Position numbers and translations under genes: made by a program. Of a DNA stretch of 64,000 bases, positions 17,431 to 20,373 are shown in pieces. Positions within the stretch are counted from its first letter, which is position 1; each line of letters opens with the position of its first letter. The notes beneath the pieces are model-generated. The model was given only the letters and a program-made list of their open reading frames with translations. It ran no database searches and was not told the origin of the DNA. The stretch is from positions 2,336,001-2,400,000 of the forward strand of contig OY969696.1 of the NCBI GenBank assembly GCA_963702005.1, read 5' to 3'. The DNA is from Candidatus Aminicenantes bacterium. GTDB lineage: Bacteria > Acidobacteriota > Aminicenantia > Aminicenantales > JAFGBC01.

Positions 17431-17837
17431 CGGCCCCTCCGGACTAAAACGGCACAGCGGGCGACTTCGCAGCCGTCGCACCAGCCGACGGGCCTGGTCT
17501 GGAGCGATCGGGGGACGGTCGGGGCCGGGACGAATCCGAGCGAGGCGAACACCTCCGGCTTGATCGTCGCTAGATAGATGTCTCCGGAGACCTCGGCCAG
17601 GACCGCGGCGATGAGGGCGGTGGCCGTCCCTCGGCCGCGAAATTCTTCGGCGACGCCGACCGCGCAGAATTCACGGCTGTCGGGATGCTGTTTGAGCCCG
17701 CAGGTGGCGATGACGGCGCCGTCCGCCTCCGCGATCCAGAACGGGTCGTCTTCCATTCCGGGATAATCGAGGCCGAGCCTCTCGGCCAGCCGGCGGACGG
17801 CGGACCGGTCCTTGGCTTCCGAACGGCGGATACGCAT
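17427..17837 (-). CDS. GNAT family N-acetyltransferase
   Basis: VGVAEEFRGRGTATALI acetyl-CoA motif, FASLGF; C-terminal WCDGC..C. Confidence 0.8.
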   Translation of the reverse strand: MRIRRSEAKDRSAVRRLAERLGLDYPGMEDDPFWIAEADGAVIATCGLKQHPDSREFCAVGVAEEFRGRGTATALIAAVLAEVSGDIYLATIKPEVFASLGFVPAPTVPRSLQTRPVGWCDGCEVARCAVLVRRGR

Positions 17838-17930
17838 GAGCGGCTATTATACCGGAAATAGCTCCTTGCGACCTATAGCCGCTTCAAATCGTATCCGTTC
17901 AGGGTTGACCCGTTCGCCGACGGCAGCCTT

Positions 17931-17974
17931 GCAGCACTCAGACTAAGCCGAAAACGGCTTAGTCTGGGTACTGC
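17931..17974. repeat. Long imperfect palindrome (REP-like hairpin)
   Basis: Perfect 11-bp stem agactaagccg-aaaa-cggcttagtct, extendable to about 20 bp with gcag/ctgc. Confidence 0.65.
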
Positions 17975-18089
17975 GAAACGCCTGCACTCATGGATTTCAT
18001 GAGGTAACATGATAGCGAAACGCACCCCCTGACGGGTAATGCTGTGATAGATTACACGTCGACTCAAATTCTTTTAAGGAGGTGCGCAG

Positions 18090-19121
18090 ATGTATTTTAT
18101 CGGTGTCGACCATCACAAGCAAGCCTCTCAGCTGACGGTTCTGGCCGAAGACGGACGGGAACTGAAGACGGGGCGCGTCTTCAACCTCAGGAGGAATGTC
18201 GAGACCTTCCTCAAGGGGTTTCATCCGTTCACGGCCGTTCTCGAAGCTGGGCGGTCCTCCTATGTGATGGCGGATCTTCTCAGGGAACTGGGCGGCGAGG
18301 TGAAAATGGCGAATGCGCTTCAGGTCAAAGCGATCGCCCATGCCCGGATCAAGACGGACAAGCGGGATTCCCGGACACTGGCCCAGCTTTTACGGGCGGA
18401 CCTGATTCCGGAAATCTATCAACGAGGCGAGGCGAACCGGCAAGCGCAAAGAGTGCTGAGAGCCCGGGCCTATTGGGTTCGGATCCAGACGGAAATCAAG
18501 AACAAGATCCGGGCGCTCTTGGCTCAGCAGAAGGAAGAGATCCGGCTGGAGGTGGACAAGCGAACGGGCGGGCTGTTCAGCGGCCGCGGGATCGAGTTCC
18601 TCAGCCGGCTTCCCTTGGAGGGACCGGACAAGATGGTCTTGGACGATCTTCTGCGGGGACATCAAGAAACCCAAGCTCATATCAAGGCGTCGGATGGAAG
18701 GGTCCAAGCCTTGTATGGAACGATCGAGGAGGCCTCCCGCATCGACAGCATCCCGGGTTTTGCCACGACGCTGGCGGTACTGGTCGCGGTGGAGATCGCG
18801 GATATCCAACGGTTTTCCAGTCCGGCCCATCTGCACTCCTACGCCGGGGTGATTCCTTCGACCTATGCGTCGGGAGAGCGGACATATCATGGGCGGATCA
18901 CCAAACAGGGGAGCGCCTGGCTGAGATGGGCGGCGCTGGAGGCGGTCTATCCGGCGATCAAGAAAGACCTAGGACTTCGAGTCCTCTACAACCGGCTGGC
19001 CAGGCGGAAGGGGCCGAACGCGGCCAAGATCGCGGTGGCGCGGCGGCTCCTGACCATTATCTATCGCATCTTGACCGAGAAAAGAACGTATCTCCCGGAC
19101 ATGAATCGATCGGCTGCCTAG
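18090..19121 (+). CDS. IS110-family DEDD recombinase/transposase
   Basis: IGVDHHK, VLEAG, KTDKRD (DEDD); YAGVIPSTYASG catalytic Ser; AAGGAGG SD. Confidence 0.95.
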   Translation: MYFIGVDHHKQASQLTVLAEDGRELKTGRVFNLRRNVETFLKGFHPFTAVLEAGRSSYVMADLLRELGGEVKMANALQVKAIAHARIKTDKRDSRTLAQLLRADLIPEIYQRGEANRQAQRVLRARAYWVRIQTEIKNKIRALLAQQKEEIRLEVDKRTGGLFSGRGIEFLSRLPLEGPDKMVLDDLLRGHQETQAHIKASDGRVQALYGTIEEASRIDSIPGFATTLAVLVAVEIADIQRFSSPAHLHSYAGVIPSTYASGERTYHGRITKQGSAWLRWAALEAVYPAIKKDLGLRVLYNRLARRKGPNAAKIAVARRLLTIIYRILTEKRTYLPDMNRSAA

Positions 19122-19277
19122 GACGACACTTAACGGACTCGCGAGAGTCGCGTTCTCCATGAGGTTTAGGAGCCGAGACCGGATATTACAGTGCGCTTAG
19201 AGGCGCGGATAGAAGGGTGGTTCAAGAAACCGAGGCAGCCATAAGGAGCGAAGATAAGAAAAAAGACTCTCGGGGCT
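19122..19277 (+). ncRNA. Candidate bridge/seek RNA of the IS1111-type element
   Basis: Structured right non-coding end containing catgag (19158-19163, matches target left side plus core) and atagaagg (19209-19216, matches circle junction); boundaries approximate. Confidence 0.6.
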
Positions 19278-19308
19278 TGCGTTTCGCCATCATAGAAGTA
19301 TCGAGGGG

Positions 19309-19337
19309 TTGACAGGAAATCGCTTCTCGGCTATATC
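19309..19337 (+). promoter_or_regulatory. Sigma70-like promoter
   Basis: TTGACA-17 bp-TATATC upstream of the URO-D family gene. Confidence 0.5.
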
Positions 19338-19356
19338 GAAACGAGAGATCAGGGAC

Positions 19357-20373
19357 ATGGTGACGCCGCGCGACCTCGTCAAGAGGGCGGTCGAATTCGG
19401 CCGGCCGTCCCGGGTCCCCCTCCAGCTCTGGTTCCTGCCTTGGGCTGAGGAGCATTACCCCCGCGAGCTGAAGGCCATCCGCGACGCCTATCCCGACGAC
19501 ATCCTGAGCGCGCCCTGCATCGCGAAGTCCGGCCTCCTGGCCGATCCTCCCCAGCGCTATCGGACGGGCGTCTTCGTAGACGAGTGGGGCTGCATATTCG
19601 AGAACGCCCAGAGCGGCCTGATCGGACAAGTTCACAGGCCGCTGATCGCCGACTGGGGAGACCTGGATAAGCTCCGCACGCCGGTCCAATACCTCGACCT
19701 GGACCGCGGGGCCATTAACGCTTTCTGCCGGGCCGAGGGCCGCTTCGTCCTGGCCGGCGTCTGGCTCCGGCCCTTCGAGCGCCTCCAGTTCCTGCGGACG
19801 ACCGAGACGCTGTACCTGGACTTGGCCGAGCGCCGCCCCGAGCTGTTCGAGCTCCTCCGGCGCGTCCACGCCTTTTACTGCGCCCAGGCCGAGGGTTGGG
19901 GGCGGACCGAGGTAGACGCGCTCTGCATTATGGACGACTGGGGGGCTCAATCCTCTCTCCTGATCGCGCCGTCGCTGTGGCGGGAGATCTTCAAGCCCCT
20001 CTACCGGGACTATATCGCCATCGCCCGGCGCCACCGAAAATACGTTTTCTTCCATTCCGACGGCTACATTCTCGATATCATCCCAGACCTCGTCGAGCTC
20101 GGCGTCCATGCCTTGAACGCCCAAATCTTCTGCATGGGACTCGAGCCGCTGGCCGCGAGGTTCCGGGGGCGGATCACGTTCTGGGGCGAGATCGACCGCC
20201 AACATCTTCTGGCTTTCGCTGCCCCGGGCGAGGTTGCCCGGGCCGTCCGGGAGGTCCATGCCCGTCTCTCCGCCGAGGGCGGCGTCATCGGCCAGTGCGA
20301 ATTCGGGGCCGGCGCCCGCCCCGAAAACGTCGAGGCCGTTTTCAGGACTTGGCGGGAGGTCGGAGAAGCCTGA
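19357..20373 (+). CDS. Uroporphyrinogen decarboxylase / MtaA-CmuA family protein
   Basis: DEWGC, PFERLQFLR, MDDWGAQ, FFHSDG, FWGEIDRQ motifs. Confidence 0.85.
   Translation: MVTPRDLVKRAVEFGRPSRVPLQLWFLPWAEEHYPRELKAIRDAYPDDILSAPCIAKSGLLADPPQRYRTGVFVDEWGCIFENAQSGLIGQVHRPLIADWGDLDKLRTPVQYLDLDRGAINAFCRAEGRFVLAGVWLRPFERLQFLRTTETLYLDLAERRPELFELLRRVHAFYCAQAEGWGRTEVDALCIMDDWGAQSSLLIAPSLWREIFKPLYRDYIAIARRHRKYVFFHSDGYILDIIPDLVELGVHALNAQIFCMGLEPLAARFRGRITFWGEIDRQHLLAFAAPGEVARAVREVHARLSAEGGVIGQCEFGAGARPENVEAVFRTWREVGEA

What the first reader, a model, noticed from the sequence alone, without database searches (positions are those of the whole stretch)
18002..19298. IS1111-type recombinase whose guide RNA can be decoded from the sequence
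Seen: IRs 7 bp and 3 bp inside the ends and an AG core at both junctions. Circularisation would create TTGCGT-17 bp-TAACAT. The reconstructed target is ttcatgAGtatc and the donor is catagaAGgtaac. The right non-coding end contains tccatgag (19156-19163, 7/8 to the target left side), a hairpin, gata (19182-19185, complement of tatc), ttac (19186-19189, complement of gtaa), a hairpin, then atagaagg (19209-19216, 8/8 to the donor). Established: IS110/IS1111 elements use a bridge/seek RNA with target- and donor-pairing guides. Inference: this is an intact programmable recombinase with an AG core and possibly an unusual guide order (right-target and right-donor guides adjacent). The 4-nt matches are weak on their own.
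Basis: partly seen in the sequence, partly recalled or inferred. Interest (0 to 1): 0.75.

Follow-up and report, generated by a model that had tools for sequence, protein, structure and literature searches.

The report
IS1111-type insertion sequence with bridge RNA

Summary
Window 18002-19298 holds an intact IS1111-type element: a 343-aa DEDD/serine recombinase, subterminal inverted repeats, an AG core at both junctions, a short left end and a 177-nt right non-coding end. The genome carries five copies in three guide variants. Each variant has 12-15 exact empty target sites in hairpin-rich host repeats.

Its 'ttac' is part of a 7-nt right-donor guide (19183-19189). Its right-target guide 'gata' (19182-19185) is a chance match.

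The real right-target guide lies just after the stop codon (19124-19130). It tracks the right flank in 31 natural guide/flank pairs (mean run 6.4 nt against 2.6 in mismatched pairs; 0 of 10000 permutations). The left-target guide tracks the left flank in 23 pairs (5.9 against 2.4). The donor guides change together with the element ends in three distant relatives.

The order is right-target guide, hairpin, left-target guide, then right-donor guide, hairpin, left-donor guide. That is the published IS1111 order, so the "unusual order" is not supported.

This is a new member of a known kind, from Aminicenantes. RNA expression, the circle form and activity remain untested.

The parts
17990..18001 (+). 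Left half of the target: the 3' arm of a hairpin in a dispersed host repeat. The window copy reads ATGGATTTCATG; the consensus is ATGGCTTCCATG.
   Evidence: 12 exact empty sites in the genome.
18002..18003 (+). Core dinucleotide AG, left copy.
   Evidence: The empty sites carry a single AG. All 20 left junctions listed end in AG.
18004..18089 (+). Left end, 86 nt non-coding. Contains the donor right half GTAACAT (18004-18010), a -10-like TAACAT (18005-18010), the left subterminal inverted repeat (18009-18032) and a GGAGG ribosome-binding site (18078-18082).
18090..19121 (+). Recombinase gene, 343 aa. Candidate catalytic residues D7, E52, D90, D93 and S261.
   Evidence: PF01548 (9.8e-16) and PF02371 (6.1e-19). 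Aligns to the ISCro4 (9t56_A, 9.5e-9) and IS621 (8wt6_A, 1.3e-8) transposases. Motif positions. The catalytic role of each residue is recalled from IS621 and was not tested here.
19110..19121 (+). 5' strand of the basal stem of the target-binding loop (TCGGCTGCCTAG). It overlaps the last three codons and the stop codon.
   Evidence: RNAalifold. 11 pairs, 4 with compensatory changes, 97.4% of cells paired. 23 of 26 relatives carry this 12-nt string unchanged, while the 5-6 nt immediately upstream vary.
19124..19130 (+). Right-target guide CGACACT, the reverse complement of AGTGTCG (core plus right target, top strand). It lies in the loop 19122-19131.
   Evidence: 31 pairs, mean contiguous match 6.4 against 2.6 in controls, 0 of 10000 permutations. 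Distant relatives.
19132..19154 (+). Apical hairpin P1 of the target-binding loop, with a GCGA loop.
   Evidence: 9 pairs, 4 with compensatory changes, 99.6% paired.
19156..19163 (+). Left-target guide TCCATGAG, identical to the target's top strand (left half plus core).
   Evidence: 23 pairs, 5.9 against 2.4, 0 of 10000 permutations.
19166..19176 (+). 3' strand of the basal stem of the target-binding loop (TTTAGGAGCCGA).
19183..19189 (+). Right-donor guide ATATTAC, complementary to the left-end top strand GTAACAT at 6 of 7 positions. It has no complement of the core.
   Evidence: 5-7 of 7 in 27 elements. Changes together with the end in the Ensifer element and L051.
19192..19207 (+). Apical hairpin P3 of the donor-binding loop (TGCGC, 6-nt loop, GCGCG).
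   Evidence: 5 pairs, 2 compensatory, 100% paired.
19209..19216 (+). Left-donor guide ATAGAAGG, identical to the right-end top strand ATAGA plus core AG plus the first base of the left end.
   Evidence: Invariant in 26 close relatives, apart from the base before it. Changes together with the right end in the Ensifer element and in G053.
19233..19240 (+). Second segment complementary to 19112-19119 (AGGCAGCC). It is an alternative outer closing helix that would enclose both loops.
   Evidence: RNAalifold. 8 pairs, 1 compensatory, 4 one-sided changes, 92% paired. Weaker than the inner stem.
19270..19293 (+). Right subterminal inverted repeat. It contains the -35-like TTGCGT (19277-19282).
19297..19298 (+). 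Core dinucleotide AG, right copy.
19299..19313 (+). Right half of the target. It reads TATCGAGGGGTTGAC here; the consensus is TGTCGAGGGGTTGAC. The terminal TTGAC is the end of the host repeat.

Best explanation
The element is an intact IS1111-group member of the IS110 family. I infer the following mechanism.

Its 343-aa DEDD/serine recombinase works with a bridge (seek) RNA transcribed from the end of the gene and the right non-coding end, about 19110-19240. The RNA has two internal loops of the same design.

The target-binding loop is closed by a basal stem (19110-19121 with 19166-19176) and capped by hairpin P1. [quoted passage not shown] The donor-binding loop is capped by hairpin P3. Its 5' strand is the right-donor guide (19183-19189) and its 3' strand is the left-donor guide (19209-19216). 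These read the joined element ends.

Recombination at the shared AG core inserts the circular form, in one orientation and without target duplication, into a hairpin of a dispersed host repeat.

Shown here: the anatomy, the copies and empty sites, covariation of all four guides with DNA, and the helices.

Inferred from the family: the circle intermediate, transcription from the junction promoter, RNA processing and binding to the recombinase, and activity.
For: Family features:
- Pfam PF01548 plus PF02371. Local alignment to the IS621 and ISCro4 recombinases covers the D, E, D..D and SG motifs.
- 24-nt subterminal inverted repeats. Left end 86 nt, right end 177 nt.

Copies and targets:
- Five genomic copies. 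Four have intact 343-344-aa frames; copy E stops at 134 aa.
- Three guide variants (A/B/C, D, E), with 12, 15 and 15 exact empty 15-mers in the genome.
- Copies A, B and C all sit in the same orientation relative to the repeat.

Target guides:
- The variable stretches of the RNA are exactly the two target guides, flanked by invariant columns.
- Right-target guide against own right flank: 31 distinct pairs, mean contiguous match 6.4 (median 7) against 2.6 in 908 mismatched pairs, 0 of 10000 permutations.
- Left-target guide: 23 pairs, 5.9 against 2.4 in 498 mismatched pairs, 0 of 10000.

Donor guides:
- Right-donor guide pairs at 5-7 of 7 positions in 27 elements. The A/G at left-end position 4 is matched by a pairing base (Watson-Crick or G-U) in 24 of 27.
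- In the Ensifer plasmid element (41.7% protein identity), L051 (42%) and G053, the left-donor and right-donor guides change together with the element ends. Their target guides match their own flanks.

Structure:
- 98.4% of cells paired, 10 pairs with changes on both sides, 0 of 500 shuffles reach this; slid controls give 30-44% paired.

Promoter:
- No sigma-70-like promoter inside the integrated element. The joined ends give TTGCGT-17-TAACAT.

Literature:
- IS1111 seekRNAs lie downstream of tnp, with the top-strand match 5' of the bottom-strand match (PMC11187229, sections 6, 8-10, 13, 14 read).
- IS1111 bridge RNAs lie in the right end (PMC11208160, passages).
Against: - No direct evidence that the RNA is made or that the element moves. 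No run held half of the sampled words, only contigs could be laid, and no circle joint was seen.
- The window copy's own flanks each carry one mismatch to the guides (left 7/8, right 6/7). In ISEc11 matching flanks were needed for movement (PMC11187229, section 14), so this copy may excise poorly.
- Some natural pairs match badly. For the right-target guide, 7 of 31 pairs have a contiguous match of 3 or less, among them L110, L047, L071 and the window copy. For the left-target guide, 3 of 23 do. E and L037 share a left guide that fits their common target only with a 1-nt bulge.
- Three elements (D, L037, L102) have two mismatches in the 7-nt right-donor guide.
- Unlike IS621, the right-donor guide here has no complement of the core.
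- The junction promoter is 7 of 12 to the consensus, and the host's promoter rules are unknown.
- Relatives are not independent, the structure alignment was fitted to the model, and the close relatives contribute little helix variation.
- A second segment (19233-19240) can also pair with 19112-19119, so the fold is not settled.
Confidence: 0.88

Rival explanations
1. One reading: the right-target guide is 'gata' at 19182-19185, directly next to the right-donor guide. This would give an unusual guide order with only one hairpin-flanked target guide.
For: gata is the reverse complement of tatc in the window copy's own right flank.
Against: - Copies B and C have the identical RNA but a TGTC flank, as do the 12 empty sites.
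- Across 29 distinct pairs the site matches its own flank no better than other flanks (0.76 against 0.73 of 3). Only 1 of 29 matches fully.
- The region varies with the left end of the element, not with the flank.
- Another segment, 19124-19130, covaries strongly with the flank.
Confidence: 0.02
2. Same element and same guides, but the RNA folds differently. An outer helix (19112-19119 with 19233-19240) encloses everything. The target guides then sit in a three-way junction, and 19163-19175 pairs with 19219-19231. Alternatively, the two folds alternate and correspond to a long (about 130 nt) and a short (about 67 nt) RNA form.
For: - RNAalifold predicts this fold when the 3' part is included.
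- The helix is 92% paired with 4 wobble-type one-sided changes and 1 compensatory pair. G053 and the Ensifer element keep it in part.
- Siddiquee et al. found long (145-170 nt) and short (70-100 nt) transposase-bound RNAs (PMC11187229, sections 8 and 14).
Against: - The inner stem has more compensatory pairs (4 of 11 against 1 of 8) and is also kept in L051, where I saw no outer partner by eye.
- One column of the outer helix is unpaired in 7 of 28 sequences.
- The alignment was fitted to the inner-stem model, which biases the comparison.
Confidence: 0.3
3. The copies are relics. The guides record past insertions, but the element (or at least the window copy) no longer moves.
For: - The window copy's flanks mismatch its guides on both sides.
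- Copy E is broken.
- There is no promoter in the integrated form and no circle joint in the contigs laid.
Against: - Three copies are 99-100% identical with intact frames, and there is a fourth intact variant.
- Guides are perfect for B and C, and many empty targets remain.
- Lack of an internal promoter is normal for this family (PMC11187229, section 8).
Confidence: 0.15
4. Target choice is made by the protein recognising the hairpin shape of the repeats, and the RNA matches are incidental.
For: All three target types in this genome lie in palindromic repeat modules.
Against: - Guide and flank sequences covary across 31 and 23 pairs with many unrelated targets, some not obviously palindromic.
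- Experimental reprogramming has been shown in the family (PMC11187229, section 10).
Confidence: 0.03

Closest known systems
IS1111-family elements with seekRNA: ISEc11, ISPa11, ISKpn4 (Siddiquee et al. 2024, PMC11187229)
   Same: - Transposase of about 340 aa, subterminal inverted repeats and a long non-coding region downstream of tnp.
- RNA with the top-strand match 5' of the bottom-strand match.
- Insertion into REP-like or hairpin targets in one orientation, and no internal promoter.
- Natural retargeting between relatives (ISEc11/ISXne4 there; variants A, D and E here).
   Different: - Protein identity to anything in the plasmid collection is at most 41.7%.
- The host is Aminicenantes.
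- Donor-pairing segments are not described in the sections I read, whereas here they are mapped and covary.
- The published RNA folds are in figures and supplements that I could not see, so a stem-by-stem comparison was not possible.
IS621 bridge RNA (Durrant et al. 2024, PMC11208160; structures 8wt6 and others)
   Same: - Two internal loops, each with a left guide that pairs with the bottom strand and a right guide that pairs with the top strand. One loop reads the target and one reads the donor.
- Dinucleotide core.
- DEDD plus serine recombinase.
   Different: - The RNA is in the right end, after the gene, not in the left end.
- Within each loop the right guide is on the 5' strand and the left guide on the 3' strand. 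Siddiquee et al. report the opposite order of target matches for the IS110 type (section 14); that IS621's donor loop is also in the opposite order is my recollection.
- The core is AG, not CT.
- The right-donor guide lacks the core complement. In IS621 all four pairings include the core (passage read).
- The inverted repeats are long.
ISPpu9 of Pseudomonas putida (PMC12288879)
   Same: Inserts into repetitive extragenic palindromes and recombines at an invariant AG (passages read).
   Different: ISPpu9 belongs to the IS110 group, lacks terminal inverted repeats, and carries a separate downstream small-RNA module that can move on its own.

Membership tests
IS110 family (DEDD transposases) | N-terminal DEDD/RuvC-like domain (PF01548) and C-terminal PF02371 domain with the conserved SG | tested here: met
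   both domains are above their cut-offs; aligns to the IS621 and ISCro4 transposases across GxD, KTDxxD and YxSG.
IS1111 group | Subterminal inverted repeats of 7-17 bp or more, set a few bases inside the ends | tested here: met
   arms 18009-18032 and 19270-19293. The best stretch is 16 nt with one mismatch. They lie 5 and 3 nt inside the ends when the core is not counted.
IS1111 group | The longer non-coding region lies downstream of tnp | tested here: met
   Left end 86 nt, right end 177 nt. The criterion is from PMC11187229 section 6 and PMC11208160.
IS1111 group | Transposase of 330-350 aa with a G(L)xPxxxxS/TG motif | tested here: met
   343 aa. It reads GVIPSTYASG, ending at S261-G262, with V in place of L. 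The criterion is from PMC11187229 section 6.
IS1111 group | Site- and orientation-specific insertion without target duplication | tested here: met
   Copies A, B and C sit in the same site and orientation. The empty sites carry a single AG.
IS1111 seekRNA / bridge RNA | [quoted passage not shown] | tested here: met
IS1111 seekRNA / bridge RNA | The RNA is transcribed, bound by the transposase and required for transposition; a circular intermediate forms with a junction promoter | not testable with these tools
   Only contigs of relatives were available, one run being from an RNA library. The junction motif is present but weak.
IS1111 group | The transposase clusters with IS1111-group proteins in a phylogeny | not tested

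The most novel reading that the evidence does not exclude
The RNA may have two nested, mutually exclusive closing helices that both use the strand overlapping the recombinase stop codon (19110-19121).

The inner helix would give a target-only RNA of about 67 nt. The outer helix would give an RNA of about 130 nt holding both the target and donor loops.

This would be a built-in switch. It could explain the short and long seekRNA forms seen experimentally, and it would couple RNA maturation to the end of translation.

Together with a right-donor guide that skips the core, it would mean that this lineage handles the donor differently from IS621.
Probability: 0.2. Interest if true: 0.55.

Novelty: new member of a known kind. 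Interest (0 to 1): 0.35.

Why it matters
The element adds a well-resolved natural example of RNA-guided recombination from an uncultured lineage. One genome holds three retargeted variants, and 31 right-guide and 23 left-guide natural pairs were collected across relatives.

These pairs show how much mismatch, bulging and register shift the system tolerates in nature. All four guides can be located by covariation alone, which is useful for annotating such elements and for choosing compact recombinases to test.

It does not change the picture of how the family works.

Tried and rejected
- Rfam scan of 17500-19800 at E up to 10: four weak hits, 13.9-18.7 bits against gathering scores of 70-197, none relevant.
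- Single-sequence fold of the right end: z-score -0.72, uninformative on its own.
- Sequencing runs: no run held half or more of the words. The four runs laid were contigs only.
  - No circle joint was seen and no contig spanned the element.
  - An X2 contig that leaves the left flank at 18003 and continues as an uninterrupted target matches another repeat copy of the genome, listed near C1:3834821. It is therefore not an empty allele of this locus.
  - Contigs of relatives in the RNA-library run X20 overlap 19072-19220. DNA carry-over cannot be excluded, so I draw nothing from this.
- Covariance-model search of 151 genomes sampled from the phylum: matches in 2, including the window's own genome. 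The family is patchy, and I could not gather more intermediate relatives that way.
80 became loci, of which 16 carry the RNA; the rest are chance 15-mer matches.
- L052, L053, L056 and L181 gave no usable RNA alignment. L058 and L060 were not analysed.
- No structure prediction, complex prediction, protein database search or tree was run. The family assignment did not need them.
- Supplementary figures of PMC11187229, which hold the long seekRNA folds, are closed. They may already show the nested helices or donor matches that I describe.
Full report
**What is there**

The window holds one long frame in this region, 18090-19121 on the + strand, 343 aa. It carries the two Pfam domains of IS110-family transposases, PF01548 (9.8e-16) and PF02371 (6.1e-19).

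It aligns locally to the solved ISCro4 and IS621 transposases (9t56_A, 9.5e-9; 8wt6_A, 1.3e-8). The alignment covers the GxD, KTDxxD and YxSG motifs. These fall at D7, E52, D90, D93 and S261. The catalytic role of these residues is recalled from IS621, not tested here.

Inverted repeats lie at 18009-18032 and 19270-19293 (24 nt, 83% complementary). The left non-coding end is 86 nt and the right one is 177 nt.

The neighbours are a GNAT acetyltransferase gene on the minus strand and a URO-D-family gene on the plus strand. The element sits between these divergent genes.

**Copies and target**

The window lies in a 4.31-Mb single-contig genome. Related elements come mostly from records titled Candidatus Aminicenantes. 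The genome has five copies:
- A, the window copy.
- B and C, 99% identical to A.
- D, about 80% identical.
- E, 80-87% identical, with an internal deletion.

A, B, C and D have intact frames of 343-344 aa. E stops after 134 aa.

Aligning A, B and C with their flanks shows where identity ends. On the left it stops just before AG+GTAAC. On the right it stops just after CATAGA+AG. All three copies sit in the same site and orientation of a repeated sequence.

The uninterrupted site TTCCATGAG|TGTCGA occurs 12 times exactly. With up to 3 mismatches it occurs 100 times, against 25 for the reversed control. The core is therefore a single AG with no target duplication.

The site is the 3' arm of a hairpin (CACTCATGG ctt CCATGAGTG) near the end of a dispersed repeat that terminates in TTGAC. 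Earlier notes of this scan describe that repeat as a small mobile element that nests at promoter -35 boxes. I saw the TTGAC ends and the -10-like sequences after them, but I did not test that reading.

The window copy's own flanks differ from the consensus by one base on each side.

**Three natural guide variants**

Aligning A, D and E shows that the right ends are nearly identical except for two short blocks. One block lies directly after the stop codon and the other about 30 nt further on.

- D sits in TATGAG|TACTGC. This is another hairpin module of the same repeat family, about 20 nt upstream of the A site.
- E sits in CGCGAAG|GGGATT, in a different palindromic repeat.

Each target type has 12-15 exact empty 15-mers in the genome.

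The block after the stop codon is the reverse complement of the core plus right flank in each variant:

| Variant | Block after the stop codon | Core plus right flank |
|---|---|---|
| A | CGACACT | AGTGTCG |
| D | GCAGTACT | AGTACTGC |
| E | ATCCCCT | AGGGGAT |

**Wider test**

A protein-pattern scan of one genome per species gave 24 loci, mostly from Candidatus Aminicenantes assemblies. Of these, 80 became loci and 16 carry the RNA.

From 36 element rows I extracted the two variable blocks and the flanks.

Right guide:
- 3 of 36 rows were dropped for lack of a guide or a flank, and duplicates were merged. This left 31 distinct pairs.
- The mean contiguous match from the core is 6.4 (median 7). 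In 908 mismatched pairs it is 2.6. None of 10000 permutations reaches the observed mean.

Left guide:
- 27 rows have a left flank, giving 23 distinct pairs.
- The mean is 5.9 against 2.4 in 498 mismatched pairs, again 0 of 10000.

Poor pairs exist:
- 7 of 31 right-guide pairs have a contiguous match of 3 or less. Among them are L110, L047, L071 and the window copy itself.
- 3 of 23 left-guide pairs do.
- E and L037 share a left guide that fits their shared target only with a 1-nt bulge.

In one clade the right guide sits one base closer to the hairpin.

- tccatgag (19156-19163) is the left-target guide. It matches the consensus target 8/8.
- atagaagg (19209-19216) is the left-donor guide.
- ttac is the 3' part of ATATTAC (19183-19189). 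This pairs with the left end GTAACAT at 6 of 7 positions. In 27 elements the segment pairs at 5-7 of 7. The A/G at left-end position 4 is met by a pairing base in 24 of 27.
- gata (19182-19185) fails. Its match to its own flank (0.76 of 3) equals the match to other flanks (0.73), and only 1 of 29 pairs, the window copy, matches fully.

The proposed adjacency of the right-target and right-donor guides therefore falls.

**Donor guides in distant relatives**

The close relatives have nearly invariant ends, so I looked at three distant elements: L051 (42% protein identity), a plasmid-borne element of Ensifer adhaerens (41.7%) and G053.

The covariance model aligned the Ensifer and G053 RNAs at 35-37 bits. 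It aligned only the first stem of L051, at 6.8 bits. For L051 the positions are therefore my own reading.

| Relative | Guide | Guide reads | DNA it matches |
|---|---|---|---|
| L051 | right-target (reverse complement) | AGAATGAC | right flank, 8/8 |
| L051 | left-target | CGTTCAG | left flank, 7/7 |
| L051 | right-donor (reverse complement) | AGGTAATAT | AG plus left end GTAGTAT, one G-U pair |
| Ensifer | left-donor | ATTGGAG | right end CATTGGAG |
| Ensifer | right-donor (reverse complement) | GTGGCGT | left end GTGGCAT |
| Ensifer | target guides | - | both match 6 nt of the flanks |
| G053 | left-donor | AGAGAAG | right end CAGAGAAG |
| G053 | right-target (reverse complement) | AGCCAC | right flank |

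Both donor guides thus change together with the element ends.

**RNA fold**

RNAalifold on 26 relatives pairs 19110-19121 with 19166-19176. This strand covers the last three codons and the stop codon. The pairing closes an internal loop whose two strands are the target guides and whose cap is hairpin P1 (19132-19154).

The donor guides flank hairpin P3 (19192-19207) in the same way. A possible 4-bp stem (19177-19180 with 19219-19222) lies below them.

On a model-fitted alignment of 28 sequences this structure has 98.4% of cells paired. Ten pairs show changes on both sides. In all five measures 0 of 500 shuffles reach the observed value, and slid controls give 30-44% paired. The basal stem has 4 of 11 compensatory pairs, P1 has 4 of 9 and P3 has 2 of 5.

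The 12-nt 5' strand is unchanged in 23 of 26 relatives, while the 5-6 nt immediately upstream vary. This argues for an RNA constraint on top of coding.

A second segment, 19233-19240, can pair with the same 5' strand. That outer helix is weaker: 92% paired, 1 of 8 compensatory pairs and 4 one-sided changes. It is partly kept in G053 and the Ensifer element. The two helices exclude each other.

The spans they close, about 67 and about 130 nt, lie a little below the published ranges for the short (70-100 nt) and long (145-170 nt) transposase-bound RNAs (PMC11187229, sections 8 and 14). That link is my inference.

**Expression**

No sigma-70-like promoter is found in the integrated element. The joined ends give TTGCGT, 17 nt, TAACAT, which is 7 of 12 to the consensus.

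In ISEc11 the only promoter seen is the one formed at the circle junction. The RNA there is thought to be processed from the tnp transcript (PMC11187229, sections 8 and 14). I could not test either point here.

**Comparison and novelty**

The anatomy meets every sequence-level criterion of the IS1111 group that I could test. The guide order is the one published for IS1111 seekRNAs.

An AG core in a REP-type target is also known from ISPpu9 (PMC12288879, passages read).

Differences from IS621:
- The RNA lies in the other end of the element.
- The target matches are in the opposite order within the loop. Siddiquee et al. report this for the IS110 type; that IS621's donor loop is also reversed is my recollection.
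- The right-donor guide has no core complement. In IS621 all four pairings include the core (PMC11208160, passage read).

Protein identity to anything in the plasmid collection is below 42%. No paper in the searched library holds both 'Aminicenantes' and 'IS110'.

I rate this a new member of a known kind. The 'unusual guide order' is withdrawn.

Noticed in passing
G000:C1 about 3156100-3156135 (copy D, locus L004); seen in the alignment: Copy D carries an insert of about 30 nt between its ribosome-binding site and the start codon. The insert is a piece of the host repeat that variant A targets (it ends in ...GGGCTTCCATGAGT). The frame is intact (344 aa). The origin of the insert is unexplained.
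   Followed up: partly
L091:208-300 and L133:128-219 (metagenome contigs): Two fragments hold only the donor-loop half of the RNA and the right end. Unrelated sequence is joined exactly after an AG, at the boundary where the left-target guide normally ends (...AG|GTTTAGG).

The DNA that encodes the left-target guide imitates a left junction. These fragments could therefore be products of recombination at that pseudo-junction.
   Followed up: partly
L071:2196 onward: The right flank of this element repeats the element's own right-end tail, starting at an AG inside ...GAG|GCAGC. It may be a tandem or self-targeted event.
   Followed up: no
L047 right junction: The right core reads GG instead of AG, while the left core is AG. 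The protein match to this locus covers only residues 51-342.
   Followed up: no
window 19299-19356: The host repeat ends in TTGAC 10 nt beyond the insertion point. It is followed after 17 nt by TATATC, upstream of the URO-D-family gene. The element thus sits just outside a likely promoter without breaking it. This fits earlier scan notes on this repeat family.
   Followed up: partly
G000 genome-wide: Variant E targets a second repeat family built of two hairpins (CACGGAC..GTCCGTG and GAATCCC GCGA AGGGGATT). Ten copies carry the exact left context.
   Followed up: partly
L042 and L044 (same genome): Two copies with identical guides sit in targets that share the right half (AGATATTTC) but differ in the left half (TTAAG against TTCAG). 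This suggests that the right-target pairing tolerates less mismatch than the left one.
   Followed up: no
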